A DNA stretch of 64,000 bases from an uncultured Planctomycetales bacterium (GTDB lineage: Bacteria > Omnitrophota > Gorgyraeia > Zapsychrales > JANLHA01), in NCBI GenBank assembly GCA_964400065.1, contig CAYNSM010000001.1, positions 16,685 through 80,684 on the forward strand. The letters are read 5' to 3'. The notes beneath the pieces are model-generated. The model had not been told where the DNA came from. It searched no databases and was given only the letters and a program-made list of their open reading frames with translations. Positions 21,036 to 64,000 of this stretch are shown here, in pieces. The translations under genes and the position numbers were made by a program. Position 1 is the stretch's first letter, and each line of letters starts with the position of its first letter.

Positions 21036-21082
21036 TTAATGTTGCTTTTTGTTAGTGAAATTTTTATGTTTAAGAACGAGGC

Positions 21083-33107: not shown

Positions 33108-33144
33108 GGGGCCATTGTAGCACTCGACAAATAAGTTGTCATTA

Positions 33145-47165: not shown

Positions 47166-47172
47166 AAAAAAT

Positions 47173-47742
47173 CTATTCTTTAGGACGGAGTTTGTTTTCT
47201 AGAAACAAGAATTGTTTGCGGCAGGCAGCGCAATAATAGTCAGCAGAAAGCTTGCGCCCGCAGAGGCAAGCATAACCCAAACAACGGCCCGGATTGCCGG
47301 CAACAATTTCAAAATCGCCGACACTTTTAGTGACCACGCTGCCGGCACCCACAACCGCATATTGCCCGATGGTAATCCCGCACAAAATAACGGCATTGCT
47401 GCCAATCGAAGCCCCGCACTTTACGAGTGTTTTTTCCAAAACCCACGGATCCCGTCGCAAAGCGCGCGGATGACGGTCATTGGTAAACGCCGCATTGGCC
47501 CCGCAAAAAACATTGTCCTCGATCGTCACACCTTCAAAAACATTGACGCCGTTTTTTAAGGTCACATGATTTCCAACGACAGCCCCTTTTTCGATATAAC
47601 AGCCGTCGCAAATATTGCAATCCTCGCCGATCATCGCCCCCTCCTGGATGTTGGCAAAAGCCCAGATCCGCGTGCGATTTCCAATCTGCGCTTTGGGACT
47701 GACCAAAGCGGTGGGATGTTTGAAAAATTTCTTTTTTATCAC
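47173..47742 (-). CDS. hexapeptide-repeat sugar N-acetyltransferase with C-terminal Cys-rich tail
   Basis: Left-handed beta-helix repeats. GTG start with a GGAGAT RBS and a GTGA overlap with the upstream dehydrogenase stop. C-terminal CLGYACLCG...CAAC. Confidence 0.75.
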   Translation of the reverse strand: MIKKKFFKHPTALVSPKAQIGNRTRIWAFANIQEGAMIGEDCNICDGCYIEKGAVVGNHVTLKNGVNVFEGVTIEDNVFCGANAAFTNDRHPRALRRDPWVLEKTLVKCGASIGSNAVILCGITIGQYAVVGAGSVVTKSVGDFEIVAGNPGRCLGYACLCGRKLSADYYCAACRKQFLFLENKLRPKE

Positions 47743-48755
47743 GCTATCTCCACGGGTGCGCCACCTTGCTGAATCGAACGCTGTGTCGCACATAACGTGC
47801 GGACAACATAATAACCCTTTTGGGCATCCGCACGTTCTGGTTGTTTATGGTTCAAAACGCAATCGATAAAATACTGCGCCTGTACTTTGAGCGGTTCGTG
47901 AAATCCCATATTAGGGATCGTGATGCTTCCCTCGCGCGAGAGCAGCTGAAATTCGCCGTAACTTTCATAAAATTTACTCGTGCGTTCGACGTGTTTGTCA
48001 TAGAGACGAATCGGCCCCAAATTATCCAAATCGTCCCAAACAACCATTTTTTTGTCGCCGACAATTGTAATCTGGCGCACCTTTTTAGGGTCCAGCCAGC
48101 TGACATGAACATTGACCAAAATGTTTCCCGGATACTCCAACGAGGCGAAAGCCACATCTTCAAGACTTTGCCCCAAATATTTCTGGCCGCAAGATGAAAC
48201 TTTCAAAGCTGATGAATCAAACAAAAAATCAAAAATGGAAATATCATGCGGCGCCAAATCCCAAAGCGCATTGACATCGTAGCGAAAAGGTCCCAAATTT
48301 GTGCGCTGCGAATGGGCATACTGGATCTTTCCTAGCTCGCCGGAATTAATATATTCCTTAAGCCGCACAATGCCCTGATTAAAAACAAAGATGTGACCCA
48401 CCATAAGTAGTTTTTGTTTTTGGCTAGCGAGTTCTTTTAACTGCAAACATTCTTGCGGGTCTAGCGCCAGCGGCTTTTCGCACAAGACATGCTTGCCGTG
48501 CTCGAGCGCTTCTTTCGAAAACTGAAAATGCGTATTAGTAGGGGTTGCAATACACACCGCGTCAATATCCGGGTCGGTTAAAATTTCGCGATAATTTTTT
48601 GTCGTCTTGATCGTCGGGAAAAGTGCCTTAATCGACTTTAGTCGCGCTTCGTCCAAATCCGCACAGATCACCACTTGCGAATTGGCCACCTGGCTAAAAA
48701 TACGGATATGGTTAGGGCCCCAATGGCCGCAACCGATAATGCCTAAACGAATCAA
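47739..48755 (-). CDS. Gfo/Idh/MocA-family sugar dehydrogenase (WbpB-like)
   Basis: IRLGIIGCGHWG Rossmann start. TTG start preceded by AGGGAGGAAA. The ORF-track ATG at 48809 adds a non-conserved leader. Confidence 0.8.
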   Translation of the reverse strand: MIRLGIIGCGHWGPNHIRIFSQVANSQVVICADLDEARLKSIKALFPTIKTTKNYREILTDPDIDAVCIATPTNTHFQFSKEALEHGKHVLCEKPLALDPQECLQLKELASQKQKLLMVGHIFVFNQGIVRLKEYINSGELGKIQYAHSQRTNLGPFRYDVNALWDLAPHDISIFDFLFDSSALKVSSCGQKYLGQSLEDVAFASLEYPGNILVNVHVSWLDPKKVRQITIVGDKKMVVWDDLDNLGPIRLYDKHVERTSKFYESYGEFQLLSREGSITIPNMGFHEPLKVQAQYFIDCVLNHKQPERADAQKGYYVVRTLCATQRSIQQGGAPVEIA

Positions 48756-48972
48756 GGTTTCCTCCCTTTTGTCAGTGCACCAGTAAAATTCTATCGCCAT
48801 TATAGGCAAATAAGTTTAAGTTAAAAATAATAATTTTTTATATTTATTGTAGAATACAAAAACAACGCCTATATCTTTAACGAATTCAAAAATCCTTTTA
48901 AGGCGAATTGCGCCATAGAGGCGCCAATCAATTGAGCCGCAAAAGGATTTTTGGATTCGTTAACACAAGCTA

Positions 48973-49479
48973 ATGCTAACAATAAATAAAAAGTTTTTAA
49001 TTTTTGTACACCTTTGGAAAGCACCGCTGTTTTTAGCTACCGCGTCTTTGCTCTTGGCCTTTAATCTTTTTTGCTCAGCCAAAGAAACGGTAAAAATGTC
49101 CCAAGTCCGCAAGCGTATTGCCTATACATTTTTAGGCGACCGCTTTCGCGGGCTTAGGTCCTTTATCGGCAACGCTCCTTATATTGGCTACGCGACCGAT
49201 AAAAATCTCGACGACAATCGCAACGCTATGCAGTTTGCGCAAGCTCAGCTGGTTTTGGCACCAACGATTCTTGACTTAAATAATATGTCCCACGAATTTG
49301 TCATTTTTGATTACACAACGCCACAGGCCGCAGTTAAGAAAATCAAAGAACTCAAATTACAAGCGCTCAAAGCTAACCAATATGGAATCATTCTCGTGCA
49401 CAATCCAAACACCAGTATTATTTACAAAGCTGACGAGAACGAAACGTTTAATAAAATCCAGCATACACAAATGCCATGA
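48973..49479 (+). CDS. hypothetical exported protein
   Basis: Signal/TM N-terminus. ATGA overlap with the downstream membrane gene. Confidence 0.45.
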   Translation: MLTINKKFLIFVHLWKAPLFLATASLLLAFNLFCSAKETVKMSQVRKRIAYTFLGDRFRGLRSFIGNAPYIGYATDKNLDDNRNAMQFAQAQLVLAPTILDLNNMSHEFVIFDYTTPQAAVKKIKELKLQALKANQYGIILVHNPNTSIIYKADENETFNKIQHTQMP

Positions 49480-50828
49480 TCCTCTTACCCTTTTTGATTT
49501 CTAGCGCCATTGGGATTCTCTGGATAAACTTTTTGTTTAAAAAAGATACCCCACCTAATCTTTTTCTTACTAGCGCACTGGGTATTGGTTTAGGATTAGG
49601 GTTAAGCAGCCATTTGACATTCGCAAGCTTTTTATTTTTTAACCGCCTTCTGCCGGAGTTTATTATCAGCGCACATCTTGTGATTCTGGTAGCGTTAATG
49701 ATTGAACGCTTTGTCTTTCGAAAAAACAAGTCCCTAAGAGTTGATTTACCCAAAATGACATGGCAAAACATCAGCCTTGCGTCCCTTATTCTCGTCATCC
49801 TTTTTCTCGTCGTCAAACAAGGCCTGTTTTATCCTTACGGCGGTTGGGACGCCTGGCAGGTTTGGAACTTTAAAGCCAAATTTCTATTCTTGTCCGGGGA
49901 ATATTGGCACAATCTTTTTTCAGCGGATCTTTGGCGCAGCAGCCCGCATTATCCGCTTCTTTTGCCGCTGATCAATGTCTGGGGCTGGTTGTTTAGCGCA
50001 AAACCAAATGACACAACACCTTTAGTCACATCCATTCTTTTTTCGTGTTTGACCGCCGGATTATTAAGCAGCGCTCTTTGGGAAAAAACAAAAAACGTTT
50101 TTTCACTCTTGCCAGGTCTTTTGATCCTGACCTTGCCGTTTTATATTTTGCTGGCCACGACCCAATACTGCGACATTGTGCTTTCGTTTTATCTCTTAGC
50201 TTCTATCGTCGCCCTTACAGAAGCACAAAAAAAGAACCGAAAGCCATTGGCCTTGCTCGCCGGACTTTTGGCCGGCTTTCTGGGATTTACCAAACCTGAA
50301 GGCTTGATCGCTTCCCTTATTCTCTGCGGCTTGGTCGTCGGGTTAACCCTAACAAGCAAATTGCGCAAAAACAAAAACTTTTCTTTCGTTTGCGCCGGAC
50401 TTTTTTTCTTAGGATTTGCCCTCTGTTCTTTACCAACCTTTGTCTTTAACGTGCTTTACTCGCCGGGCAATCAGACATTTGTCAATGGTCTGACTTCGAC
50501 ACTCAAACCGTCGACATGGGAGCGGCTTCAAATTATTTTAAATTTTCTTTGGGTGGAATTTAAAAGCGCCAAGTGGAATGGCTTGTGGATTTTACTTCTC
50601 TTAGGCTTAATTCTCGGCGGCAAAAAGCCGTGGGTCAAGACTAATATTCTCAGTGGCTTGTTTTTGCTGTTTTATCTAACGGTGATTGTTGCGTATTATC
50701 AGATCAATACGTATTTTGAAATCAAATGGTGGCTTTCGGTGTCGCTAAACCGCATTCTCTTTTCGCTCTTGCCGCTTTTTTTGTTGTGGGTTTTTGGGAG
50801 CCTGCTCGACAAAAATAATAATCCGTAG
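49476..50828 (+). CDS. polytopic membrane protein, possibly a GT-C-type glycosyltransferase
   Basis: About 12 hydrophobic helices. 450 aa. Convergent with the giant-protein operon. The functional assignment is speculative. Confidence 0.55.
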   Translation: MILLPFLISSAIGILWINFLFKKDTPPNLFLTSALGIGLGLGLSSHLTFASFLFFNRLLPEFIISAHLVILVALMIERFVFRKNKSLRVDLPKMTWQNISLASLILVILFLVVKQGLFYPYGGWDAWQVWNFKAKFLFLSGEYWHNLFSADLWRSSPHYPLLLPLINVWGWLFSAKPNDTTPLVTSILFSCLTAGLLSSALWEKTKNVFSLLPGLLILTLPFYILLATTQYCDIVLSFYLLASIVALTEAQKKNRKPLALLAGLLAGFLGFTKPEGLIASLILCGLVVGLTLTSKLRKNKNFSFVCAGLFFLGFALCSLPTFVFNVLYSPGNQTFVNGLTSTLKPSTWERLQIILNFLWVEFKSAKWNGLWILLLLGLILGGKKPWVKTNILSGLFLLFYLTVIVAYYQINTYFEIKWWLSVSLNRILFSLLPLFLLWVFGSLLDKNNNP

Positions 50829-50840: not shown

Positions 50841-53800
50841 CTAACGCACTTCAACTAAAGAAACATCTTCTGCCGGCGGCGTTGAAGATAAGCCTAAAAG
50901 CAAAGGCAAACTCACAGGCGTTGTCTGAATGATAATCGGCGTAATGCCGCTAAACGGGACGATGGCAGAGTTTTCAGGATCAAAAAGAATTACTGACGAG
51001 GCCGGCCGGTCTGTTTGTTCTTCCAATTGCCAATTTTGTGGATTTAAGTCAATACCGCCGGGCGGCTCTATATCCAGAGAAGAACTGACAGATTTAGGAC
51101 TTTGCTTTTGCTCTTTAAGCCAAGCTTCAATCTTTGGTTTTAACATTTTAACCGCCTCTGTAAAACCCTGCATTGAGGAGCCTGCACCATTGTGCCGCAC
51201 GCCAAGATTTCCGACAGTTTGCGCATATTCATATTCTGCCCCCGGGATTTCAATAGCCAAACGCGTTTCGTATCCGCCTGTTTCTTGGCTCTGCACAACA
51301 TGCAGATCAAACACTCGCCCAGCAATATCAACCTGCGTTAAGAACTCAATTCTTTGATTCTTATACTCTGGCTGAATCAGATTTAACCGTTTGGCTTGAA
51401 TCTCATCAAGTGTCAAAACCTTTGTGGACTCTCCCAAAGGAGCAATAGACACAATCCCTTTGCTGGCTGCAGTTTTATTAAAATCTCTCAAAGCCTCGTC
51501 AAATGCTTTAGAAAAATCTGTCCCGCTTTGACTAGCATAAAGATTTCCTCGCCACCCTTGCGGCCGATCATTTTTAATAAAACGAATATTGACTACTTTT
51601 TTAGGCTCATCGCGTACTTTTTTCTTACCTTCCCACGCTCTATCCCGACCGCCAGATAACTCAATAATCAGCTCCCACGGCTCACCGGAAACATTAACTG
51701 GCGCCTTGACTATTAAACTTTCTCCGTGAGCATAAGACTTTTGCGCTAAGACTTCGCTGACAGCTTTTAAAATGCTTTGCACATTATTTTTTTCTGATGC
51801 TGGCACTTGGGTTAATCTGCGTCCAACGACCTCTTGCAGGGAAGTTTCGCCTTGTTTACGAACTAGCTCAACGTCCCACGCATCATTCTCAAAATAATCT
51901 TGGCTAACGACAAAAACATCTTGATCTGCATAACCTTGGTCTTTAATGAAACGTTCTAAAGCGGCCCTCGCTTGCTTCTGATCTTGGGCACTTACTTTTT
52001 GTCCCCCTTGAGCAAGACGATCAATAATTTCTTTTTTATTCCCCTGAAAAGATTCAATCTGTACTCTGGTCACGTCTAGGCCTATTCCACCCGGATCAAA
52101 ATGAGGAATAATATTTGTATTCAAAAAAGACATATCCGCTGGCTTAGCTTGTGTATCAGCTATTCCCTTTCTTTTTTGTGCATCTGTTTTAGCTTTTGCT
52201 AAATCCGTCATAGTCTTACTTAAAAATTCTTTCATAAAGTCTTTAAAAAACTGGCCAGACTCTCTTTTTGAAACGGTCTTCTCTTTAAACATCTCTGCCG
52301 CTAATTCTTTCGCCTGATTGCGACGCTCTGGCGATTGACTTCGGTCATATTGATCTGAAAAAATCCTACGAAAATGATGAAGCAGCAAATCTGTATCAGT
52401 AAAATATTCGGCAAACTCGCGATCGTGCGAAACCTCATGATATCCCATATGCGTTAAAAGTTTTTTCAAGAATTCTTGTTCCTTCGCTGAAAGTTTTTGT
52501 TTAACCTTTGACACTTCTTGTTGATACTGCTTGTCGCTTTCATACAAAGCATGACCTTTTTCATGTTCACGCACAGTATTTGCATCATCTTCTCGCAAAT
52601 CATTTGGATGAACCAAAATATTGACATTTTTGTCCTCAACAAACTTGCCGCCTTGATTTTTAATCACTCCATTCTTTTCCAAAAAGTTTCTAAATTCTTT
52701 TTCCTCTCGTGATAATTTATCGCCGGCCTGATTAAAAAACCGCGCCAACTCATCAGCGGTAAAGTTATAAGCCGTGAATAATGAATCCTTCTTTTCTCCA
52801 AAATAATCACTATGTATATCCCCCGTCGATGTCAAAAGCTCATCAACTTTTTGTGGACTGACAACCTGCCCCTGATAGGCAGGATGTTCTTTCCAAACTC
52901 CAGCACGATTTAACATATCTCCCATTTCACGCATATTTCTGACAGCAACTTCCTTTGTACCCGGCAAACCTTTGACATCTTCCATAGCCAACTTTTGCCC
53001 TTTAGGAATTGAAATGGGCTTTAATTGATTAACTATTGGAGCAAAACCATTTGGCGGTGAATAAACCTGCGGGACATATTCATCCTTTGGCATCGTATAT
53101 GGAATACTAATCGGCTCCTGAGGAACATACTTCATGCTGTTTTCTTGCTCAACTGGCTTTTCCCCAACTTTGCGCGTTAGCCTTTGAATACCTGCCTGAC
53201 CAATAGGAACATCGACGACCTCACCGTTTGCACCTAATAAAGCATGAGGCGAACGTTTTCGTTCTTCTTCCGATAAACCAAAAGGATTTTTAGGATCAAC
53301 GCCTTCGATAAACGCCGTCGTCCGATTAGAAGACAAAGAATCATTTGGATCTAAAAACCCTTCCCCTAAAGGTTTTCCATCCATGCGCATTATGAGCGGC
53401 TTTGATTCTTTTTGCTCGGCGGAATTGGATGCTTGTTGCTCAGCAGATTTTTTTACGTCTGGCAAACTTACAAGAACCGCCTCTAAACTTGGCGCAGATT
53501 CAATTCGGTGAGTTTCATTTCCCTGCGGCCCCCACAACACAAAAAAGTGAAACAACAAAGACACACTCAGCGCGGCAACAAAACTACGATTCTTGCTTTC
53601 ACGATTTAATCCTAAATAAGTTAAAACTTGATAAGCTCTACCCTTTTGGACACCTTCAACTTCTAAAGCACTGCCAGCAACGACAGATGTTTTTTCCTCT
53701 AAATTTAAATTCGTCACATCAACCCCACCGGAAAAATACTTTCGAGGGATCATCTCCTGCGTCTGCGGGTCAACTTCTTCTTTAATAATGTTGTAAATCC

Positions 53801-54809
53801 CTTTTTCAAAAGACTGCAAGTATTCCCCGTAAATTTTTTCTTTAAGCGAAAGGTCGTCTGTCTCAACGCCCACAATTTTATTCTGCTGGACATAATTTTT
53901 TCCCAAAAAACTTTCGCGCAAATGTTTTTTAAACCAAACAGCCAAAATAAGCGAATGATACACTTGTCGCAGCGGCGCAAAATCTTTGCCCTCATTGACT
54001 TGTTTTTCGATGGTGGGAAGGATGGTAGAACGAAAGATATCTGATGAGGCGCTCGACTTCAGAACTCCCCCTTCCCCCTCTTTATCTAAAGAGGGGGTTA
54101 CTAGATGATTCTCTTTATTAGAAGAGAGGTTTCCCCCACTCTCCCCCTCTTTTTTAAAGAGGGGGCTGGGGGGAGTTAAATCCTCCGCCAGCATGACCTT
54201 CAAATGCGCCTGAGCGACAAAAACCTTGTCGTCTTGACGATAAATCTTGGCAATATCCGGCACGATCCAGACTTTGTTCTGTAGGGAACGGTCGCGACCG
54301 TTCCCTACTTTAGCCCAATATTCTTTCCCCAAATCCGTATCTGGATTCGTTAAAGACGCCGCTAATTGTTTTAAAAGATAATCTTGCGCCAAAAGCGTCA
54401 TGCCCATTTTAGTCGATCCAAATCCGTCGGGAATAATCCTGTCCTTCTCATCCGGCGAAAGATTGACCCACATATTTTTGTCAGGGACAGTCAAAGACGC
54501 CAAGAAATATTTGATCAACTCTTGGGATTCATCTGTCAAAGCTTGCCCAGCTAAATTTTCCTCCCCAGCATCAATGATAAAATTAAATTTTAAGGGATCG
54601 TCGGAAAAATATTGTAAACCACGTAAAACAACCGGAGAATACTCGAGCTTTTCAGAAACCATATCTCCCGGCAAAGGTAAAGCCGCGGCTTCTTGCCCAA
54701 ACGCCGGACTAACCGGCATCAAAACTGCATTGACGACAAACGCCAAAAGAATGCCGCACGAAATATTGCGTCGCAGGGGACGATTGTTTTTTGTATTAAG
54801 TTTTATCAT
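50841..54809 (-). CDS. giant secreted protein A (1322 aa), paralog of downstream-strand neighbour
   Basis: Signal peptide. Shares about 450 aa of N-terminal domain with gene B. Internal hydrophobic segment. Single HEKGH motif. C-terminal GGIDLNP...PLLLG region. Confidence 0.8.
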   Translation of the reverse strand: MIKLNTKNNRPLRRNISCGILLAFVVNAVLMPVSPAFGQEAAALPLPGDMVSEKLEYSPVVLRGLQYFSDDPLKFNFIIDAGEENLAGQALTDESQELIKYFLASLTVPDKNMWVNLSPDEKDRIIPDGFGSTKMGMTLLAQDYLLKQLAASLTNPDTDLGKEYWAKVGNGRDRSLQNKVWIVPDIAKIYRQDDKVFVAQAHLKVMLAEDLTPPSPLFKKEGESGGNLSSNKENHLVTPSLDKEGEGGVLKSSASSDIFRSTILPTIEKQVNEGKDFAPLRQVYHSLILAVWFKKHLRESFLGKNYVQQNKIVGVETDDLSLKEKIYGEYLQSFEKGIYNIIKEEVDPQTQEMIPRKYFSGGVDVTNLNLEEKTSVVAGSALEVEGVQKGRAYQVLTYLGLNRESKNRSFVAALSVSLLFHFFVLWGPQGNETHRIESAPSLEAVLVSLPDVKKSAEQQASNSAEQKESKPLIMRMDGKPLGEGFLDPNDSLSSNRTTAFIEGVDPKNPFGLSEEERKRSPHALLGANGEVVDVPIGQAGIQRLTRKVGEKPVEQENSMKYVPQEPISIPYTMPKDEYVPQVYSPPNGFAPIVNQLKPISIPKGQKLAMEDVKGLPGTKEVAVRNMREMGDMLNRAGVWKEHPAYQGQVVSPQKVDELLTSTGDIHSDYFGEKKDSLFTAYNFTADELARFFNQAGDKLSREEKEFRNFLEKNGVIKNQGGKFVEDKNVNILVHPNDLREDDANTVREHEKGHALYESDKQYQQEVSKVKQKLSAKEQEFLKKLLTHMGYHEVSHDREFAEYFTDTDLLLHHFRRIFSDQYDRSQSPERRNQAKELAAEMFKEKTVSKRESGQFFKDFMKEFLSKTMTDLAKAKTDAQKRKGIADTQAKPADMSFLNTNIIPHFDPGGIGLDVTRVQIESFQGNKKEIIDRLAQGGQKVSAQDQKQARAALERFIKDQGYADQDVFVVSQDYFENDAWDVELVRKQGETSLQEVVGRRLTQVPASEKNNVQSILKAVSEVLAQKSYAHGESLIVKAPVNVSGEPWELIIELSGGRDRAWEGKKKVRDEPKKVVNIRFIKNDRPQGWRGNLYASQSGTDFSKAFDEALRDFNKTAASKGIVSIAPLGESTKVLTLDEIQAKRLNLIQPEYKNQRIEFLTQVDIAGRVFDLHVVQSQETGGYETRLAIEIPGAEYEYAQTVGNLGVRHNGAGSSMQGFTEAVKMLKPKIEAWLKEQKQSPKSVSSSLDIEPPGGIDLNPQNWQLEEQTDRPASSVILFDPENSAIVPFSGITPIIIQTTPVSLPLLLGLSSTPPAEDVSLVEVR
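54074..54165 (-). repeat. in-frame palindromic repeat units in giant gene A
   Basis: CCCCCTCTTT-atct-AAAGAGGGGG (54074-54097) and CCCCCTCTTT-ttt-AAAGAGGGGG (54143-54165). Confidence 0.85.
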
Positions 54810-54830
54810 AAATCAGACTTTATCTAATTT

Positions 54831-57800
54831 CTAACCAGCCGAATTAGCCGCCAGTTCTGGTTCTCTGGCTGGTTCTTTAGGAGCCTGCCCTAAAAAGATC
54901 GGCAAGGTCTGGGCATTGATCGGCGTAATGTTAATGATGACAGGAAACAATCCCTGAATATTAATCTGTTCCAAATTCTGTTGGGGCAAAGGCAATGGAA
55001 CACCTTTCCCGTCGCGCTTAATTTGCAAATTCATGTTGGTTGGGTCAAAGTCGATACCACCCTTCGTGAAATCACCTTCTACTGTCGGCGCGGAAGAACT
55101 ATTTGCAGGTGCCGAAGAAACATCTGGCAACTCATAGATCATTGACCCGGAATGTGCCAAGGCATTGATTTGATAATCTGCCAAGCGTTCCCCTTTTTCC
55201 ATGACCTCAATTAAGTCACGAACTAAAGGATTTATAGGATTAATAAAACGAAAACCATGTTTCCAATAAAAAATGACTGCCGTTCGTTCAATCGCTTCTC
55301 TCCCAAATATTTGTTTTCCTTGCACAATAAAACTTTTTCTTCCGGTTATTGTCTTAAGAATGTCCATCCTCCCATGCAGAATATCCCAACTATTAATCTT
55401 ATCCTTTCCTAAAGCCACACGCCTTGTCTGAACGTCACGAAGGACATTAAATGTCAAAAAAATCGAGTCTGTGTCTGATTGTACCGGAATCATACTCGCA
55501 CCATATGCAAGCGGCTTATCGTCTGAATCCACGACAAGTTCAAACCAACGGTTTTCATTTTGATCATAAATTCCAACCCAACGCAGATCTCCGATTTGCG
55601 CAATTTTAACCAAATTTTCTTTTCCAAGATCATACATCCCAGGAATGTTGCGCTTTCGCGAATGTAATGCCCTCCAAAACTTATCCACCCAAAACATTCT
55701 CTTATCGGCCTCAACATCCTGCACATCCACCGTGCTCGACGCGGCGGGGGGAATATCTACATCGATTTTCTTACCTGCCTTAGTTGCATCAATTACTGGC
55801 ATTACTTTATCAGCGGCGGGCCCAAATAAAGTCTTATTATCGCGATAATTTGCACCCAAAGAATTTCTATCCAGAGCTATTAGTACAGCTTCAATTTGCT
55901 TTCTTAAACCAATCAACTCCCACTTATCACCGTATTTAAACGGATATGTTTCTCCATAACCTTCCAAATAACTAAAAATACTGGTATTCAATATCCATGC
56001 CGTATGAAATAAATCTATCAAATCATCTTTTGTTACAACTTGACCATCATTAAATTGAGTAAAATAAACTAAAGCCTCAATTAAATCACGAGTAGATACT
56101 TGTTCGCGATTTTGAAAATTTTCCAAAATACGGTGGTAACGAACATATTGAGATCCATACCTTTCATATCCCGGCTGCTTTCCAATAAGTCTCTGCCAAT
56201 TTTCGTGTAGCCGATTTTCAACCTCTATTGTGCCCTGTCTCAAATCTGAAACTATCTGCTCCTCATTAGACAATTTGGAAGCAATGGATGGACTCGGTTC
56301 AATCGGTTTTTGGCTTTTTTCATACTCGGTTGCCGCGTCTGAAAGTAAATTCTGGGCCGCCTGAAAATCAGCCCAATCTTTTAGACGATCTTTTGCACTT
56401 ATAAACTCCGAACTTCCGATCACTTGCTCCAAAGAACTTAAATCAATGACCATGTCGGCAACTTTTTCACGGGCCTGCGTTGTATTTAATATAGCTGCTC
56501 CTATCGACGGATCATTAGCAGCAATAACGCGCTTTAAAATCTGAAACTCCACATCCGCCGTTATCTCAAACCCAAGTCCAGTATGACTCGGTGTCGGATT
56601 GGCCAACGTTGCAATCAGTTTAATCATCCCACTCTGAGTTTTGGGTTGCTGCACTAAAGCATCTAACAAGCTAATCAATTGCTGACCAGAGATCTTTTTC
56701 CCCGTAAAATTAACAGGGTTAACTTGCGCAGGAACGTCCGTTGACATAGCAATAGCTTTTAATGTCCCAACGGCTTCTTGCAGCTCTGTTAAAGCATCTC
56801 CTTTTAATTGACCACTTTGCGCTGCTTCTTCGATAAGTCTTACGACTCTCGAAATGTCAATCACAGGATGACTCGCAAGCGTTCTACTAAAATAATTTAA
56901 TATTCCAGGATTTCGACTTCCGAAAGCTTTTATCACAATTTCATCAGGACTATTTGCTAATGTGGTCGCCATATGCACTATTTTGGCAATAGCAGCTATA
57001 TCTGCATCGCCCGGATTATCTCTCAATTGTTGGATTGATTCTGCTAAAACTTTAATCTCGCCTACCGCGCTGGAGGCGAGGGAATCAATAGTGATGCTTA
57101 AAATATTTTGAACGGTAAATCCTTTAATGTCATAAGCATCTTCTTCGAGACTAGGGACTTTAACGCGAACTATTGTTGTGCCATCAATGACCCTATCTTT
57201 TTTTCCTATCGTCTGGCCATTAATTTCAATGATTGAACCTGTGGGCGATTCCGTGGTTTCTTTACTGCCATCAAAATGTTTATACGTCACAGTAACGCTA
57301 TCACCCCCCTGAAGCAATGAAACTGCATGGACAATCTCTTTTTGCACGTTAAACGTTTTCCCAACTAATTGTGCTCTTTCTTCGTCCAAAGCGCTCGAGG
57401 CAGCGAGTGTGACGGAAATGATTTTATCCAAAGACATCAGAGCATAACCTTCGAACTTAATCTTTCCTTTTTCTCTATCGATTTTTTCTATTTTAGTCTT
57501 AGTAGATATACTTTGCTCATTCGCACTTGCCCAATAAGTGAATGAAACAATTTTTGTCCCAACGCTAATTAAACTGCTTAAAACGCCTTCTTCAAATTCT
57601 GCACTAGTCAATTCTTGATCTTTCGGCAAAGTTACCGCAATCCCGCTGGAGGCGCTTTTGCTATCTGGAGGAAGACTCTTAATTAAATTTTCTATTTCCT
57701 TCCCAAGCGTACGAGGAGTGACCTCCTGAGTTGATTGGTCAACACTCCCATCACTGCGTGTTATTTTAGAAATTGTCCTCAATTTTACTATATTTGGCAA

Positions 57801-60536
57801 ATTACCGACTTCCTTCAAGACCCCTTTAGCATTTTGATAAATTTGACGATATACAGCCTTTTGATCTTGAGGGTTCATCCCTTTAGCTTTCTGAAAATCC
57901 TTTTGCAAATTAAGAAAAATCTGAAAATTGTGTTCCAAAGACTCTGCCGCAGATTGCATTTGCTCTGTGCTCCTAATCAATGCTTTCGCGTTTGCAATAT
58001 TACCTTCAACGGAAACTTGAATATTTCTTAAATTCTGGCTTACATCGGGATGTCCCTCCAGGAGAGGTTCTTTACGCAACTCTTTAATCGTCGCTAAGAT
58101 ATCACTTAAAGTGTTAACCATGCCTTGAGCTTGCTCGCTATTATATTGATTGGGAAGCGCATTACTCTTATCAATCAATTTTATCAACACCCCTTCTGCA
58201 GCATAAATTCTTCCAATGTCTTGCGGAGTATACCCAACAATAGATTGCAAATTACCTTTTACTGTCGCATCAACATCGCTATAGTTGGCAGTGACTGCCC
58301 CATTAACAATTTGCCGCGCCCTAACCACCTTGTGCCCGACATTTTCATTCAATTTGCGTTCGTATCCTTGCGAATTATCAGAAAGCCAAACATCTCCATC
58401 ACCGAATTTAAGCATAGGCGTCACATGCCCAGCAGGTTCTTGTTTTTGATTTACAAAATTCCTTATAACCGGAACTACTGAAACATCATAGGGACCTTTA
58501 AAAATCCCTAAATCGCCAAGAATCATAATGCGCAACTCCGCTTCATTACCGCAAATAAATGTTTTTGGATTTTCTTTGTCATTGCCATATTGATAGCGGA
58601 GATTTCCAATAAATACATTTCTCCAATTATCAGGCCATAATTCCCTTGAGATATTCCCAAAAAATTTAGAATTTTTCCTAATTTCCTCGAGGGCCTTATG
58701 ATCATAGACTGCACTTGCTTTGATCCAAGACTGAACCCAACGGGCTGCTGATTTTTGTAATGCCCCCAATTTAATATTATCGCTAGAGATCTTTTGGGCC
58801 TCACGTTGTAATCTAGCCCTGACCTCATCAAAACTTTTGGCCCCATTAAGAAAACTAATCAATCCGTCCGTCGTTATCTGTCCGCCGTTTTTTTGTGCAA
58901 ATTCTTGAAGCATTTTATCTAAATTGATATTCAATTCATTTTTTGCACCATTCGTATCTAACTTTCGTCCTCTATAATTCTGTTCCGCAACATAAGCATT
59001 CGCAAAATCAAGGGAAACCGCAGGAACATCGAATGAAGCAAAACTCAAAGCAAGAACGGCAGCAAAAGCAGAAAGCAATTTTGTTAACTTCTCTTTCCCG
59101 CTAGCGACAACATCCGTGACTCCACTCGAGGAAGCATCAATTTGCGCTTGCGCGGCGGCCACAGCGCCTAATGCCGGGCCCTCTGCTTCAGTTAAAATCC
59201 GAACTATAAATGGTAAAATCGGCCCACTTTCTTGCAATACTCTTTCTATGCCCTCATCATTAATAGGCGTTATCTTTAAATCAAAATCCTTCCAGCCGGC
59301 TACAGATGAACCTTCTACAATTTGAATCCCACCACTAAAATACTTTCTCGGGATAAGGTCGCCGTTTTCGTCGGCTTCTTCCTTAATCAAGTTGTACGCG
59401 CCTTTTTTAAAGGCGGCTAAATATTGCTCGTAAATTCGCTGTTTCATCTCTTTGTCGTCGGTTTCAACGCCGGCGACTTTGCCTTTATCGGTATAAATTT
59501 TGCCCAGCAAACTTTCTTTGAGGGCTTTTTTGTACCACGCGGCTAAGATGACCGAGTTGTAAATCTGACGCACGTCGGCAAAATCTTTTCCTTCGTTGAC
59601 CGCTTTTTCGATGGTGGGAAGGATGGTGGAACGGAAAATTTCGGACGAGAGGTTGGATTTCAGAACTCCCCCTTCCCCCTCTTTATCTAAAGAGTGGGTT
59701 ACTAGAAAATTTTCTTTATTTGAAGAAGGGGTTACCCCACTCTCCCCCTCTTTATCTAAAGAGGGGGTTAGTTGGGTGTCGCTCTGTTTATCTAAAGATG
59801 GGGTTGCTAGAGCATCTCTGCTCTCCCCCTCTTTTTTAAAGAGGGGGTTGGGGGGAGTTAAGTCCTCCGCCAGCATGACCTTCAAACGCTTTTCGCCAAC
59901 CAAGACGATGCCGTTGCTTTCTAACACTTCGGCTTTAGCAGGCATAATCCAGACCTTGTTAAAGTCGCTAGACATTGGAGGCTGGACACTGGTGGTTGAG
60001 TTTTTCTCTAGCGTCAAACGTCCAGCATCTAACGTCCTTACCCCATTAACCTGATCCCAATATTTCTTACCTAAATCCGTTTCCGGATTGGTGAGTGATG
60101 CGGCCAATTGTTTCAAAACATAATCCTGCTCGAGCATGGTCTTGCCCATCGTCGTCTGCCCCAAAACGTCGGGAATGATTCTGTCTTTTTCGGTCGGAGA
60201 AAGATTGACCCAAACTTCCTTATCTGGAATCGTTAATGCGGCGAGAAAATATTTAACGAGCTTTGTTGTTTCACTTTTAAGTTCGTCAGTCGAAAGTTTC
60301 GACTGACCTTGATCGACGATAAAATCAAACAAAAGCGGGTTTTCAGGATGAATTTTAAGGCCGAGCAAAACTGGCGGTTGATAACCAGCGGCAAGACTTA
60401 CCGGGTTATTTAAAACTGGTAACACCTGTGCGCCAGCCGGAGCAACGATAAGCGAAGTTAGAAAAGTTAGTGCAATAAAACTGCTGATAACTTTTTTACA
60501 AAACGTTAGACTATCGCGATTAAAGAGAACCTGCAT
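54831..60536 (-). CDS. giant secreted protein B (1901 aa)
   Basis: AAGGAGGA RBS. Signal peptide. Same N-terminal domain as gene A. Expanded SLDKEGE repeat block. C-terminal GGIDFDP...PIFLG region. Confidence 0.8.
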   Translation of the reverse strand: MQVLFNRDSLTFCKKVISSFIALTFLTSLIVAPAGAQVLPVLNNPVSLAAGYQPPVLLGLKIHPENPLLFDFIVDQGQSKLSTDELKSETTKLVKYFLAALTIPDKEVWVNLSPTEKDRIIPDVLGQTTMGKTMLEQDYVLKQLAASLTNPETDLGKKYWDQVNGVRTLDAGRLTLEKNSTTSVQPPMSSDFNKVWIMPAKAEVLESNGIVLVGEKRLKVMLAEDLTPPNPLFKKEGESRDALATPSLDKQSDTQLTPSLDKEGESGVTPSSNKENFLVTHSLDKEGEGGVLKSNLSSEIFRSTILPTIEKAVNEGKDFADVRQIYNSVILAAWYKKALKESLLGKIYTDKGKVAGVETDDKEMKQRIYEQYLAAFKKGAYNLIKEEADENGDLIPRKYFSGGIQIVEGSSVAGWKDFDLKITPINDEGIERVLQESGPILPFIVRILTEAEGPALGAVAAAQAQIDASSSGVTDVVASGKEKLTKLLSAFAAVLALSFASFDVPAVSLDFANAYVAEQNYRGRKLDTNGAKNELNINLDKMLQEFAQKNGGQITTDGLISFLNGAKSFDEVRARLQREAQKISSDNIKLGALQKSAARWVQSWIKASAVYDHKALEEIRKNSKFFGNISRELWPDNWRNVFIGNLRYQYGNDKENPKTFICGNEAELRIMILGDLGIFKGPYDVSVVPVIRNFVNQKQEPAGHVTPMLKFGDGDVWLSDNSQGYERKLNENVGHKVVRARQIVNGAVTANYSDVDATVKGNLQSIVGYTPQDIGRIYAAEGVLIKLIDKSNALPNQYNSEQAQGMVNTLSDILATIKELRKEPLLEGHPDVSQNLRNIQVSVEGNIANAKALIRSTEQMQSAAESLEHNFQIFLNLQKDFQKAKGMNPQDQKAVYRQIYQNAKGVLKEVGNLPNIVKLRTISKITRSDGSVDQSTQEVTPRTLGKEIENLIKSLPPDSKSASSGIAVTLPKDQELTSAEFEEGVLSSLISVGTKIVSFTYWASANEQSISTKTKIEKIDREKGKIKFEGYALMSLDKIISVTLAASSALDEERAQLVGKTFNVQKEIVHAVSLLQGGDSVTVTYKHFDGSKETTESPTGSIIEINGQTIGKKDRVIDGTTIVRVKVPSLEEDAYDIKGFTVQNILSITIDSLASSAVGEIKVLAESIQQLRDNPGDADIAAIAKIVHMATTLANSPDEIVIKAFGSRNPGILNYFSRTLASHPVIDISRVVRLIEEAAQSGQLKGDALTELQEAVGTLKAIAMSTDVPAQVNPVNFTGKKISGQQLISLLDALVQQPKTQSGMIKLIATLANPTPSHTGLGFEITADVEFQILKRVIAANDPSIGAAILNTTQAREKVADMVIDLSSLEQVIGSSEFISAKDRLKDWADFQAAQNLLSDAATEYEKSQKPIEPSPSIASKLSNEEQIVSDLRQGTIEVENRLHENWQRLIGKQPGYERYGSQYVRYHRILENFQNREQVSTRDLIEALVYFTQFNDGQVVTKDDLIDLFHTAWILNTSIFSYLEGYGETYPFKYGDKWELIGLRKQIEAVLIALDRNSLGANYRDNKTLFGPAADKVMPVIDATKAGKKIDVDIPPAASSTVDVQDVEADKRMFWVDKFWRALHSRKRNIPGMYDLGKENLVKIAQIGDLRWVGIYDQNENRWFELVVDSDDKPLAYGASMIPVQSDTDSIFLTFNVLRDVQTRRVALGKDKINSWDILHGRMDILKTITGRKSFIVQGKQIFGREAIERTAVIFYWKHGFRFINPINPLVRDLIEVMEKGERLADYQINALAHSGSMIYELPDVSSAPANSSSAPTVEGDFTKGGIDFDPTNMNLQIKRDGKGVPLPLPQQNLEQINIQGLFPVIINITPINAQTLPIFLGQAPKEPAREPELAANSAG
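59675..59847 (-). repeat. in-frame palindromic repeat units in giant gene B (4 units, 2 perfect)
   Basis: Units at 59675-59698 (1 mismatch), 59744-59767 (perfect), about 59784-59803 (degenerate) and 59825-59847 (perfect). Confidence 0.85.
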
Positions 60537-60645
60537 AGAGTTTTTCCTCCTTAAGGGAAGTAATACTAATAAGTATTGTCAAAGGAAAATTAAAAAAGAC
60601 GAAAAATACAGATAAGGTACACAGCTAAAATATACAAGCAAAGCC

Positions 60646-62958: not shown

Positions 62959-62979
62959 AAGGAAAACTCCCTAATCAGT

Positions 62980-63696: not shown

Positions 63697-64000
63697 CGGG
63701 CGCTTTAGTTTCAAAAACACGAAATTTGTTATTATCAAATTTTGTATAAATCCGCTCGTAGGGCCGGACATCGACGGTTTGCAAATAAAACGGCACGTCC
63801 CGATAAACCCCCAGAGGCATGACTTCCGAATCCATCAAAATATCCACCGTATCCCGTGGATACCACAGTTCCCCTTCAAATTCAATCGGCTCGCCATTGC
63901 GTATCCACGCAGGTTCCGGACTAATGACTTTATAAACCGTCATCCCCATGTCGTGCCCCGACGCAGAAAAGCAACCGCTGCTAAAACCTACGGCAAACAA
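63671..64000 (-). CDS. hypothetical protein, possibly N-truncated at window edge
   Basis: ORF abutting the window end. No motifs. Overlaps the mlaF start region. Confidence 0.25.
   Translation of the reverse strand: MFAVGFSSGCFSASGHDMGMTVYKVISPEPAWIRNGEPIEFEGELWYPRDTVDILMDSEVMPLGVYRDVPFYLQTVDVRPYERIYTKFDNNKFRVFETKAPDDKSKKAF

What the first reader, a model, noticed from the sequence alone, without database searches (positions are those of the whole stretch)
50841..60536. Tandem pair of paralogous giant secreted proteins of an unrecognised family, flanked by a glycosylation module
**Operon structure.** Two back-to-back minus-strand genes of 1901 and 1322 aa lie 21 nt apart and are evidently one operon. 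The first has a strong AAGGAGGA RBS.

**Shared features.** Both proteins share a signal peptide, a colinear N-terminal domain of about 450 aa, a mid-protein hydrophobic segment, and a related C-terminal region (GGID(L/F)xPxN...LP.(L/F)LG). The shared N-terminal domain includes VWVNLSP(D/T)EKDRIIPD, LKQLAASLTNP(D/E)TDLGK, FRSTILPTIEK.VNEGKDFA and IPRKYFSGG. One roughly 250-nt block (54010-54200 versus 59600-59880) is about 90% identical at nucleotide level. Differences are concentrated at third codon positions, which points to purifying selection on the protein.

**Novelty.** I cannot assign the N-terminal domain or the about 900-1400 aa C-terminal parts to any family I know.

**Genomic context.** The pair sits convergent to a polytopic GT-C-like membrane protein, and next to a GT2 / acetyltransferase / sugar-dehydrogenase cluster. 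Together they look like a dedicated giant surface (glyco)protein system, for example an adhesin or S-layer-like system.
Basis: partly seen in the sequence, partly recalled or inferred. Interest (0 to 1): 0.8.

Follow-up and report, generated by a model that had tools for sequence, protein, structure and literature searches.

The report
Omnitrophota capped modular exported protein pair
The two big genes are real paralogues and belong to a very large, undescribed protein family found only in the uncultured phylum Omnitrophota, in which a fixed N-terminal module and a fixed 65-residue C-terminal module frame freely swapped "cargo", so they look like exported cargo carriers and not like an adhesin or S-layer glycoprotein system.

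Summary
**Observation:** confirmed. Two minus-strand genes (1901 and 1322 aa, 21 nt apart) share a signal peptide, a ~360-aa N-terminal domain (51% identity) and a C-terminal motif. Neither matches Pfam, NCBIfam or PDB.

**What it is.** Both belong to a huge Omnitrophota-restricted family. The C-terminal profile finds 2300 clusters (50% identity) at E<=1e-10. The plan is invariant:
- a classical AxA|Q signal peptide;
- an "N-cap" ending in PRKYFSGG, with no PDB fold match;
- a variable cargo of 300 to >4500 aa;
- a highly conserved ~65-aa "C-cap" (GGIDFxP..LQIKRDGxGVPLPLPQQ..PVIINIxP..LPxLLG) at the extreme C-terminus.

**Cargo.** In relatives it includes kinases, receiver domains, HEAT repeats and glycolytic enzymes. 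This matches the repertoire reported for Omnitrophota giant "Archaeovorins". Here it is orphan: gene A is helical, and gene B has a conserved HExxH block.

**Cargo exchange.** Cargo modules are exchanged at protein-level "ASSx[VLI]" linkers and between the caps, even at this syntenic locus.

**Context.** The glycosylation flank is not linked: relatives have it without the giant genes, and the giant gene without it.

**Best reading (inferred).** The caps are export and targeting modules of a polymorphic, effector-like family.

The parts
54831..60536 (-). Gene A, 1901 aa: signal peptide + N-cap + orphan multi-module cargo + canonical C-cap
   Evidence: ORF and translation. It is identical to P0001 in the protein collection.
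60545..60552 (-). AAGGAGGA ribosome-binding site of gene A
   Evidence: Read from the upstream sequence.
60429..60536 (-). Gene A signal peptide, aa 1-36 (…APAGA|Q)
   Evidence: Hydrophobic core at aa 12-43. The family-wide AxA|Q rule holds.
59328..60428 (-). Gene A N-cap, aa 37-403, ending in PRKYFSGG
   Evidence: 51% identical to B. Conserved across the family. AF2 core pLDDT is 80-90. No PDB fold match.
59649..59870 (-). In-frame hairpin-repeat insert in an N-cap loop of A. Units are CCCCCTCTTT-loop-AAAGAGGGGG, translated as PLFKKEGE / PSLDKEGEGG.
59001..59090 (-). Hydrophobic segment of A, aa 483-512. Possible TM helix; not a family feature.
55071..59327 (-). Gene A cargo, aa 404-1822. It has no family or PDB match and is divided by ASSx[VLI]-type linkers at aa 468, 962, 1046, 1154, 1599 and 1813.
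   Evidence: Homology blocks to P0002 and P0003 start and end at these linkers.
54888..55070 (-). Gene A C-cap, aa 1823-1883 (FTKGGIDFDPTNMNLQIKRDGKGVPLPLPQQNLEQINIQGLFPVIINITPINAQTLPIFLG)
   Evidence: It is 93% identical to the cap of the otherwise unrelated gene at the same position in L081.
54810..54830 (-). 21-nt intergenic spacer between A and B
50841..54809 (-). Gene B, 1322 aa: signal peptide + N-cap + orphan cargo + divergent C-cap
   Evidence: It is identical to P0076. Four full-length orthologues share 58-63% identity over the cargo, 66-68% over the whole protein.
54696..54809 (-). Gene B signal peptide, aa 1-38 (…SPAFG|Q)
53724..54695 (-). Gene B N-cap, aa 39-362
54058..54188 (-). 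Hairpin-repeat insert in the same N-cap loop of B. It is 90-96% identical at nucleotide level to the copy in A.
53523..53591 (-). Hydrophobic segment of B, aa 407-429, invariant in B orthologues
52416..52565 (-). Conserved HEKGH…HMGYHEVSHDREF block in the B cargo, aa 749-798. Candidate zincin-like metal site.
   Evidence: Invariant in all 5 orthologues. There is no HMM support.
50892..51068 (-). Gene B divergent C-cap, aa 1248-1306 (GGIDLNPQNWQLEEQTDRPASSVILFDPENSAIVPFSGITPIIIQTTPVSLPLLLG)
46434..50828 (.). Context only, not part of the system: 450-aa polytopic membrane protein (+), 168-aa protein (+), GFO/IDH/MocA oxidoreductase, hexapeptide acetyltransferase and GT2 (all -).
   Evidence: This block occurs without family genes in L077 and is absent next to the A orthologue in L083.

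Best explanation
A and B are tandem paralogues of a phylum-specific family of Sec-exported modular proteins.

**Architecture.** Every member has four parts:
- a cleavable signal peptide;
- a conserved ~360-aa N-terminal module, the 'N-cap';
- one or more interchangeable cargo modules, often joined by short ASSx[V/L/I] linkers;
- a highly conserved ~65-aa C-terminal module, the 'C-cap'.

**What is shown.**
- The architecture itself.
- Restriction of the family to Omnitrophota.
- Strict co-occurrence of the two caps.
- The hallmarks of a classical signal peptide.
- The diversity of cargo.
- Exchange of cargo between constant ends, including at this very locus.

**What is inferred.**
- After Sec export, the two caps act as the constant targeting, anchoring or delivery part.
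- The C-cap may work like a C-terminal sorting domain, and the N-cap like an anchor or translocation helper.
- The middle is the variable payload that the cell places on its surface or delivers to a host or prey cell. The logic is that of a polymorphic effector family.

**The two genes here.** The payload of A is an orphan, mostly helical multi-module region. The payload of B is an orphan region with a conserved HExxH block that may be a metallopeptidase.

**Glycosylation genes.** The neighbouring glycosylation genes are bystanders.
For: **Architecture**
- 116 of the 120 best homologues carry GGI[D/N] 58-107 aa from the C-terminus.
- In 80 genomic loci, the N-cap lies at ~aa 40-400 and the C-cap at the very end of the same ORF. 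ORF sizes run from 753 to >3690 aa.

**Family size and coupling of the caps**
- The C-cap profile finds 5148 clusters at E<=1e-3 and 2300 at E<=1e-10 in 1.84 billion representatives. The match is always C-terminal.
- Of the newly found hits of >=820 aa, 41 of 46 carry the N-cap. All of the 41 whose N-terminus is intact also have a signal peptide. The short hits look like 5'-truncated fragments.

**Taxonomy**
- At least 593 genomic matches. Essentially all are in Omnitrophota MAGs, or in MAGs labelled Planctomycetales that share near-identical housekeeping genes.
- There are many copies per genome, and tandem arrays are frequent.

**Export**
- The family follows the AxA|Q signal-peptide rule.
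- 122 of 156 members have no TM-like segment between the caps.

**Cargo diversity**
- Cargo includes Pkinase, Response_reg, HEAT, UDPGP, TIM, PGK, GAPDH, PGI, FBPase, ICL/malate synthase, DnaJ and HTH.
- The kinase cargo keeps its catalytic K/D/N/D residues.

**Cargo exchange**
- In L009, genes 0 and 1 are 99.7% identical over 2331 nt. They then have unrelated middles, then 88.6% identity over the last 237 nt.
- In L081 the gene at the A position shares only the N-cap (68%) and the C-cap (93%) with A, while flanking GreA and MlaD are 96% and 91% identical.
- In L083 (GreA 99%), the A orthologue lacks whole modules. The homology blocks start and end at ASS linkers.

**Linker motif**
- The motif is 15-fold enriched. 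It clusters right after the N-cap and right before the C-cap (40 of 156 each, against fewer than 1 expected).
- Its codons vary, so it is a protein-level signal.

**Envelope and background**
- The window also encodes Mla, AsmA/YhdP-like and T2SS/T4P components, so a diderm envelope has to be crossed.
- Omnitrophota include host-attached predators, and RNA of one of them is found inside prey cells (PMC10066038; PMC13153191).
Against: - No machinery that would recognise the caps was found. No gene family recurs next to family members.
- I could not obtain model coordinates, so I cannot say whether the C-cap docks on the N-cap. Only its first ~20 residues are modelled confidently.
- Much of the family's cargo needs cytoplasmic cofactors such as ATP or NAD. 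That is odd for exported proteins. It could mean that the signal-peptide reading is wrong or that the topology is more complex.
- A and B themselves carry a hydrophobic segment after the N-cap. If it spans the membrane, it would put their cargo on the cytoplasmic side.
- There are no expression or localisation data.
Confidence: 0.5

Rival explanations
1. Envelope-resident carriers. The proteins are exported but stay in the producer's periplasm or on its outer membrane. The caps tether diverse enzymes for the cell's own envelope or extracellular metabolism. Nothing is delivered into another cell.
For: - The same export evidence applies.
- West-Roberts et al. (10.1101/2023.11.21.568195, read) discuss extracellular pre-processing of sugars as one reading of glycolytic domains on Omnitrophota giant proteins.
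- The hydrophobic, proline-rich end of the C-cap (PVIINIxP…LPxLLG) could be a membrane- or wall-association element.
Against: - Kinases, receiver domains, HPr, DnaJ, HTH and NAD/ATP-dependent enzymes have no obvious substrates or cofactors outside a cytoplasm.
- Extreme paralogue diversification and cassette exchange are more typical of proteins that interact with other organisms.
Confidence: 0.25
2. A and B are giant adhesins or S-layer-like surface glycoproteins, made and glycosylated by the adjacent GT2, acetyltransferase, dehydrogenase and polytopic membrane protein genes, as one dedicated system.
For: - The genes are adjacent here and in two relatives, L081 and L003.
- The Ser-rich ASSx linkers could in principle be O-glycosylation sites.
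- Giant Omnitrophota proteins have been proposed as adhesins (PMC10066038).
Against: - L077 has GreA directly next to the membrane-protein and sugar block, with no family gene between them.
- L083 has the A orthologue without that block.
- No neighbour recurs across 80 loci.
- No SLH, Ig-like, cadherin, beta-helix or other adhesin repeats are found.
- The part of the A cargo that P0004 shares is modelled as helical bundles.
Confidence: 0.08
3. Type I membrane proteins. For the minority of members such as A and B, the N-cap sits in the periplasm. The hydrophobic segment after it spans the inner membrane. The cargo and the C-cap stay in the producer's cytoplasm, which would explain the cytoplasm-type cargo.
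For: - A hydrophobic segment follows the N-cap in A, B and 12 further relatives.
- It is invariant in the B orthologues.
Against: - 122 of 156 members have no such segment, yet they carry the same caps and the same kinds of cargo. The C-cap would then lie on different sides of the membrane in different members.
- In B, the basic residues lie on the N-cap side of the segment (RESKNRS). This runs against the positive-inside rule for this topology.
Confidence: 0.12
4. One split domain. The N-cap and the C-cap are two halves of a single conserved protein, for example an enzyme or a pore-former. That protein tolerates huge insertions at one site, and the 'cargo' is an insertion, not a payload.
For: - The two caps always co-occur.
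- The N-cap ends in an invariant PRKYFSGG that stays poorly modelled without a partner.
- The C-cap begins with GGI, so the junction looks duplicated.
Against: - No cargo-less member of ~450-500 aa was seen. The shortest are 753-821 aa.
- The full-length AF2 model did not raise confidence at the N-cap end.
Confidence: 0.1

Closest known systems
Omnitrophota giant proteins ('Archaeovorins'; West-Roberts et al. 2023 bioRxiv 10.1101/2023.11.21.568195; also 10.64898/2026.06.07.730766)
   Same: - Same phylum.
- Predicted signal peptides.
- N-terminal regions without known domains.
- The same unusual cargo repertoire: HEAT, GT5/starch synthase, methyltransferases, TIM, PGI, FBPase, PGM.
   Different: - Archaeovorins are defined as longer than 30,000 aa with many TM helices. 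A and B are 1.3-1.9 kaa with at most one TM-like segment and no Pfam domain.
- The papers I could read do not describe a conserved N-cap or the GGIDF C-cap.
- I could not test whether the giants carry these caps.
Type IX secretion cargo proteins with a C-terminal domain (CTD) (PMC11285876)
   Same: - Sec signal peptide, then arbitrary functional domains, then a conserved domain of tens of residues at the extreme C-terminus.
- That C-terminal domain defines a large and very diverse protein set within one phylum-level lineage.
   Different: - No match to the T9SS CTD models in NCBIfam or Pfam.
- The C-cap is shorter and proline-rich.
- A second constant module, the N-cap, is obligatory.
- No T9SS genes are seen.
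MARTX and other polymorphic toxins with constant arms and swappable effector modules (own knowledge)
   Same: - Constant N- and C-terminal regions flank a variable set of cytoplasm-acting effector modules.
- The modules are exchanged by recombination.
- Inter-module linkers serve as processing sites.
   Different: - MARTX toxins are T1SS substrates without a Sec signal peptide.
- Their arms are long glycine-rich repeats.
- They carry a cysteine protease domain for processing. None of these features was found here.
Two-partner secretion exoproteins (TpsA/CdiA) (own knowledge)
   Same: - Signal peptide followed by a conserved N-terminal domain.
- Large size.
- A polymorphic remainder.
- Frequent tandem or 'orphan' cassettes.
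   Different: - The N-cap is predicted to be alpha/beta with long helices, not a beta-helix.
- No TPS-domain match.
- No TpsB-like neighbour.
- Here the constant C-terminus is obligatory.
LapA-type RTX adhesins: N-terminal retention module plus C-terminal secretion signal (own knowledge)
   Same: Constant N-terminal and C-terminal modules frame a variable middle in very large surface proteins.
   Different: - No RTX repeats.
- A Sec signal peptide is present.
- No adjacent ABC/MFP/TolC or LapG/LapD genes.

Membership tests
Unnamed Omnitrophota 'N-cap / C-cap' family (defined here) | Cleavable Sec-type signal peptide with AxA|Q | tested here: met
   A has APAGA|Q and B has PAFG|Q. The family statistics agree. 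This is rule-based only; no SignalP run or experiment.
Unnamed Omnitrophota 'N-cap / C-cap' family (defined here) | N-cap of ~325-365 aa with WVNLSPxE, QDYxLKQ, NKVWIxP, EVNEGKxFA..RQ and PRKYFSGG | tested here: met
   Both genes carry it. E-values to homologues go down to 0.
Unnamed Omnitrophota 'N-cap / C-cap' family (defined here) | C-cap GGI[DN]…PVIINIxP…LPxLLG, 58-107 aa from the C-terminus | tested here: met
   A is canonical. B is divergent but alignable, and its form is conserved in its orthologues.
Archaeovorin-type giant proteins | Length above 30,000 aa with numerous TM helices | tested here: not met
   The proteins are 1901 and 1322 aa, with at most one TM-like segment after the signal peptide.
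Archaeovorin-type giant proteins | Glycosyltransferase, methyltransferase, glycoside hydrolase, peptidase and NUDIX domains in the protein | tested here: not met
   A and B have no Pfam or NCBIfam domain. Family relatives do carry such domains.
Archaeovorin-type giant proteins | Shared N-cap or C-cap with the giants (would show common descent) | not tested
The longest protein seen with both caps is 4969 aa.
T9SS cargo (CTD type A/B) | Match to Por_Secre_tail / type B CTD models | tested here: not met
   There are no NCBIfam or Pfam hits at E<=1 apart from noise.
T9SS cargo (CTD type A/B) | T9SS machinery (SprA/PorV/PorU/GldKLMN) in the genome | not testable with these tools
   Only a 64-kb window is available. 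None was seen in it or in 80 loci.
Two-partner secretion TpsA | TPS (haemagglutination activity) domain and an adjacent TpsB | tested here: not met
   No Pfam hit. The predicted secondary structure is helix-rich. No recurrent neighbour was found.
RTX / T1SS adhesins and MARTX | GGxGxDxUx repeats, C-terminal T1SS signal, no Sec signal peptide | tested here: not met
   No HemolysinCabind hit. A Sec signal peptide is present.
Exosortase-type sorting signals (PEP-CTERM, VPLPA-CTERM etc.) | Short motif, then a TM helix, then a basic cluster at the C-terminus | tested here: not met
   No NCBIfam hit. After LPxLLG, the tail is polar or acidic, with no TM helix and no Arg cluster.
S-layer / adhesin glycoprotein system | SLH or adhesin repeats, and conserved linkage to glycosylation genes | tested here: not met
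   No such domains. The linkage is broken in L077 and L083 and is absent across 80 loci.
Zincin metallopeptidase (B cargo only) | HExxH plus a third ligand in a recognisable peptidase fold | tested here: inconclusive
   HEKGH and a downstream His/Glu/Asp-rich block are invariant in 5 orthologues. There is no HMM or PDB sequence match and no structure model.

The most novel reading that the evidence does not exclude
The N-cap and the C-cap are the recognition signals of a previously undescribed, Omnitrophota-specific protein export and delivery pathway. After Sec export, it moves a huge and rapidly shuffled repertoire of cytoplasm-type enzymes and regulators out of these ultra-small cells and into host or prey cells. 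These include kinases, receiver domains and glycolytic enzymes. The ASSx[VLI] linkers act as processing sites that release the modules. The famous giant 'Archaeovorins' would then be the extreme end of the same system.
Probability: 0.22. Interest if true: 0.85.

Novelty: new variant of a known kind. Interest (0 to 1): 0.66.

Why it matters
- **Background.** Omnitrophota are widespread, uncultured, ultra-small bacteria thought to live as parasites or predators. Their oversized, unannotatable proteins are the main open puzzle of their genomes.
- **A handle on that puzzle.** Thousands of these proteins share two constant end modules and a classical signal peptide. Their middles are swapped as cassettes at defined linkers.
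- **Searchable definition.** Two profiles now capture a large part of the phylum's 'dark' proteome.
- **Candidate sorting signal.** The 65-residue C-cap can be tested with reporter fusions.
- **A sharper paradox.** It becomes possible to ask why cytoplasm-type enzymes sit behind a signal peptide.
- **Pay-off.** If the caps are a delivery signal, this is a new secretion or effector logic in a major uncultured phylum. It would also be a catalogue of what these cells inject or display.

Tried and rejected
- **Chimeric N-cap + C-cap model.** I used full-length P0004 instead. Without coordinates, the N-cap/C-cap contact question stays open.
- **AFDB Foldseek.** The afdb50 library was not available.
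- **Conserved neighbours.** Clustering the neighbours in 80 loci found only common housekeeping or regulator genes at variable distances. A SurA-like PPIase next to the A orthologue in L083 recurs only once.
- **Promoter and terminator scan.** Across the pair, counts were at shuffle level and uninformative.
- **ASS linker as a DNA recombination site.** This was rejected. A 10-nt core is enriched in gene A, but codons vary freely across the family.
- **Mid-protein hydrophobic segment as a family feature.** Rejected.
- **C-cap as a free-standing tag on proteins without an N-cap.** Not supported. The cap-only hits are short and look like truncated fragments.
- **Exact-match look-ups.** Look-ups of P0001 and P0030 to place the third paralogue of the source contig were not on record.
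Full report

Yes. The window holds two minus-strand ORFs, 54831..60536 (1901 aa, 'A') and 50841..54809 (1322 aa, 'B'), separated by 21 nt. A is preceded by AAGGAGGA at 60545-60552.

BLASTP of A against B gives 51% identity over 402 columns (E=8e-114). This covers the signal peptide and an N-terminal domain that ends in PRKYFSGG. A second, weak match (E=0.001) covers the GGID…C-terminal motif. Nothing in between is related.

Both proteins start with K/R, then a hydrophobic core, then a small-x-small|Q site. Both have one further hydrophobic segment after the N-domain (A 483-512, B 407-429).

Codon-position differences in the shared domain are 117/85/179, as expected under purifying selection.

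Neither protein hits Pfam or NCBIfam at E<=1 beyond noise, nor any PDB sequence.

It is 50 nt at 96% plus 109 nt at 90%, with an indel between them. The N-domain overall is 63-74% identical. The block has a different cause, described in section 7.

**2. What the two genes belong to**

A search with A returned at least 946 homologues. Every named one comes from Candidatus Omnitrophica/Omnitrophota, except one unclassified hydrothermal-vent metagenome protein. They share only the first ~21% of A. They are 1054-3242 aa long (median 1534).

The consensus is GGIDF(D/N)PxxLNLQIKRDGxGVPLPLPQQNLExINIxGLxPVIINIxPVxxQxLPxLLG.
- 97 of 120 have GGID and 19 more have GGIN.
- The motif lies 58-107 residues from the C-terminus.

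*The N-cap.* It is conserved from just after the signal peptide to PRKYFSGG, with about 45 invariant positions.

*Genomic scan.* A scan of one genome per species found at least 593 genomic matches.
- They lie in Omnitrophota MAGs and in MAGs labelled 'uncultured Planctomycetales'.
- One of the latter has a GreA 99% identical to the window's, so these are the same lineage.
- There are many paralogues per genome.

*Architecture in the loci.* In the 80 loci fetched, the N-cap sits at ~aa 40-400 and the C-cap at the very end of the same ORF.
- ORF sizes run from 753 to >3690 aa, the largest running off the locus.
- Same-strand tandem arrays of two or three members are common. The A-B pair is therefore typical.

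*Family size.* A profile of the C-cap alone, run against 1.84 billion representative proteins, finds 5148 clusters at E<=1e-3 and 2300 at E<=1e-10. The match is always at the C-terminus.
- Of the newly found hits of >=820 aa, 41 of 46 carry the N-cap. All of the 41 whose N-terminus is intact also have a signal peptide.
- The short hits lack a signal peptide and look like 5'-truncated gene calls.
- The longest complete member seen is 4969 aa.

The two caps are therefore obligate partners, and the family is very large and phylum-specific.

**3. Export**

In 114 members with a complete N-terminus:
- the presequence has a median length of 36 aa;
- 112 have K/R before the core;
- 112 have a strongly hydrophobic core;
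- Ala is at -1 in 102;
- A, V, S or G is at -3 in 100;
- Gln is at +1 in 106.

This is a textbook signal peptidase I substrate. It is rule-based, not experimental.

122 of 156 full-length members have no TM-like segment between the caps. Only 14, including A and B, have one shortly after the N-cap. At family level these are soluble exported proteins.

The window also encodes Mla components, three AsmA/YhdP/DUF748-like proteins and GspE/GspF-type ATPase and platform genes. This fits a diderm envelope.

**4. The variable middle**

Precomputed and re-run Pfam hits in relatives include:
- protein kinases, receiver domains, FHA, PP2C, HPr, DnaJ, HTH and RNA polymerase alpha CTD;
- HEAT repeats, methyl- and acetyltransferases, UDP-glucose pyrophosphorylase and starch-synthase GT5;
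- TIM, PGK, GAPDH, PGI, PGM, FBPase, isocitrate lyase and malate synthase.

The kinase cargo keeps the catalytic Lys, HxD…N and DFx-type Asp residues.

This is the same odd repertoire that West-Roberts et al. list for the >30,000-aa Omnitrophota 'Archaeovorins'. They note the same paradox of glycolytic domains predicted outside the cell. Neither that preprint, the 2026 complete-genome preprint nor Seymour et al. describes the two caps. A full-text search for the motifs found nothing relevant.

*Cargo of A.* It is shared in part with only P0002, P0003 and P0004. In the AF2 model of P0004, the shared part consists of helical bundles.

*Cargo of B.* It has only four orthologues, at 58-63% identity. 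They conserve three features:
- the hydrophobic segment;
- a block NILVHxNDL…REHEKGHALYE…HMGYHEVSHDREFAEYFTD, which contains an HExxH motif and could be a zincin-like metal site (inconclusive);
- a B-specific variant of the C-cap.

**5. Cargo is exchanged between constant ends**

- **L009.** Two tandem paralogues are 99.7% identical over their first 2331 nt, unrelated for the next 1.2-1.7 kb, and 88.6% identical over the last 237 nt.
- **L081.** The window's own locus is syntenic here: Mla–YggT–YbaB–GreA–A–B–450-aa membrane protein–sugar genes. GreA is 96% and MlaD 91% identical, and B is collinear at 64%. The gene in the A position shares with A only the N-cap (68%) and the C-cap (93% over 75 aa).
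- **L083.** This is the closest relative, with GreA 99.4%, MlaD 96% and MlaF 92% identical. The A orthologue P0002 keeps A residues 1-776 (48%), 961-1162 (71%) and 1598-1899 (77%). It lacks 777-960 and 1163-1597.
- **Linkers as boundaries.** The block boundaries coincide with a short motif: A 962 SASSGIAV, 1154 LASSAVGE and 1599 AASSTVDV. These correspond to P0002 1100 AASSGISI and 1294 AASSTVDV. The same holds for P0003.
- **Enrichment.** The motif [AVIS]SS[AGS][VLI] is 15-fold enriched over shuffles. It clusters within 40 aa after the N-cap (40 of 156 proteins, 0.6 expected) and within 40 aa before the C-cap (40 of 156, 0.2 expected).
- **Level of conservation.** Its codons vary freely across the family. 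It is therefore conserved as a peptide (a linker, processing site or modification site), not as a DNA recombination site.

**6. Structure**

*N-cap.* AF2 on A's N-cap with 28 homologues gives a mixed alpha/beta domain.
- It has two long beta-hairpins and about seven helices.
- Core pLDDT is 80-93. Two loops are disordered.
- The invariant PRKYFSGG end is modelled at low confidence.

*Full-length P0004.* This 1115-aa protein shares the caps and part of the cargo with A.
- The model reproduces the N-cap.
- The first ~20 residues of the C-cap (GGIDF…LQIKRD) form a confident beta-hairpin (pLDDT ~80-85). The rest of the cap has low confidence.
- There is no PDB match.
- I had no access to coordinates, so whether the C-cap docks on the N-cap remains open.

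**7. The high-identity nucleotide block**

It is a run of perfect DNA hairpins: CCCCCTCTTT, a 4-6-nt loop, then AAAGAGGGGG. They are inserted in frame in a disordered loop of the N-cap and translate as PLFKKEGE / PSLDKEGEGG.

The same element, 95-100% identical over 42-43 nt, sits at the same place in four paralogues of another MAG (L009, L005). Other members carry other repeat-like peptides in the same two loops, such as VIARSPQGDEAI, FPRKRES…RFRGND and TLDAGRLTLEKN…VQPP.

High identity here reflects a repeated DNA element, not protein constraint.

**8. The glycosylation flank**

GT2, a hexapeptide acetyltransferase and a GFO/IDH/MocA oxidoreductase are there. The 450-aa polytopic protein and its 168-aa partner have no family assignment.

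The gene order in relatives is:

| Locus | Gene order |
|---|---|
| L003 | GreA, one family gene, 450-aa membrane protein, sugar genes |
| L081 | GreA, two family genes, 450-aa membrane protein, sugar genes |
| L083 | GreA, A orthologue, SurA-like gene; no sugar block |
| L077 | GreA directly adjacent to the 450-aa protein and sugar block; no family gene between (a family gene lies ~5 kb further on) |

Across 80 loci, no neighbour family recurs next to family members. The flank is synteny, not a functional module.

**9. Mechanism**

*Shown:*
- the architecture: signal peptide, N-cap, exchangeable modules, C-cap;
- obligate pairing of the caps;
- phylum restriction and massive paralogy;
- cassette exchange.

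*Inferred, most likely (about 0.5):*
- the caps are the constant export, anchoring or delivery part;
- the middle is the payload, so the logic is that of a polymorphic effector family;
- the C-cap acts like a C-terminal sorting domain, as the CTD of T9SS cargo does;
- the ASS linkers are module joints and perhaps processing sites.

Cytoplasm-type, apparently catalytically competent cargo behind a signal peptide makes most sense if the final destination is another cell's cytoplasm. That would fit the attached, predatory or parasitic lifestyle proposed for Omnitrophota (PMC10066038) and the finding of predator RNA inside prey cells (PMC13153191). This step is speculative.

*Rivals:*
- envelope-resident enzyme carriers (0.25);
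- type I membrane topology for the TM-bearing minority, including A and B (0.12);
- a single split domain with a giant insertion (0.10);

**10. Verdict**

The adhesin, S-layer and glycosylation interpretation is not supported.

By kind, this is a new variant of known themes: C-terminal sorting domains and polymorphic modular effectors. Its two end modules have no detectable relatives.

Interest is moderately high. The finding gives a concrete and testable definition for a large part of the Omnitrophota 'dark' proteome, and a possible link to their giant proteins. Function remains inferred.

Noticed in passing
window 59649-59870 (gene A) and 54058-54188 (gene B); also L009 2398-2495, 6716-6813, 10562-10658 and L005 19577-19674: Runs of perfect 10-bp-stem DNA hairpins (CCCCCTCTTT, a 4-6-nt loop, then AAAGAGGGGG) are inserted in frame in a disordered loop of the N-cap. 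The two paralogues here are 90-96% identical in this element. Paralogues of a different MAG match it at 95-100% over 42-43 nt. It may be a mobile palindromic element or an RNA/DNA-level signal inside the coding sequence.
   Followed up: partly
window 59961-60056 (gene A only); other family members listed: A second in-frame element (RTLDAGRLTLEKNSTTSVQPP) is predicted to fold as one long hairpin (-26 kcal/mol, no shuffle control). Related or other repeat-like peptides recur in the same two N-cap loops of other members: VIARSPQGDEAI, FPRKRES…RFRGND and multiple TLEKQDARR units. These loops seem to be landing sites for small repeated elements.
   Followed up: partly
gene A aa 468, 962, 1046, 1154, 1599, 1813 (window 59106-59153, 57624-57671, 57372-57419, 57048-57095, 55713-55760, 55071-55118): The short linker motif ASSx[V/L/I] is 15-fold enriched in the family. 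It marks the borders of modules that are gained or lost between orthologues. It is conserved at peptide level, not DNA level. It could be a processing or modification site.
   Followed up: yes
L009 1714-5943 versus 6035-9760: Two tandem paralogues are 99.7% identical over 2331 nt, then unrelated, then 88.6% identical over the last 237 nt. This is a recent duplication followed by a cargo swap between the constant ends.
   Followed up: partly
window 52416-52565 (gene B aa 749-798): An invariant HEKGH…HMGYHEVSHDREF block lies in the otherwise orphan cargo of B and its four orthologues. It is a possible zincin-like metallopeptidase site without any HMM support.
   Followed up: partly
window 48973-50828 (+); L003, L077, L081: A 450-aa polytopic membrane protein and an overlapping 168-aa protein have no Pfam or NCBIfam match. 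They are conserved as a pair next to the GFO/IDH/MocA, hexapeptide transferase and GT2 genes in three relatives. They form an unassigned envelope-sugar module of their own.
   Followed up: partly
window 11405-13885 (+), 28539-31493 (-), 31500-33179 (-): A single 64-kb window holds three AsmA/YhdP/DUF748-like genes (bridge-type envelope lipid transport), together with Mla genes at 62362-63771.
   Followed up: no
window 20016-23091 (-): A stand-alone GAPDH is followed by two tandem 334-aa galactose-1-phosphate uridylyltransferase-like paralogues. The genome thus has ordinary cytoplasmic copies of enzyme types that appear as cargo in family members of other genomes.
   Followed up: no
L083 15048-16580 and L047 14442-15932: A SurA-like PPIase (Rotamase_2) lies convergent to a family member in two loci. 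West-Roberts et al. report a conserved Rotamase_2 PPIase near giant genes. It recurs too rarely here to draw a conclusion.
   Followed up: partly
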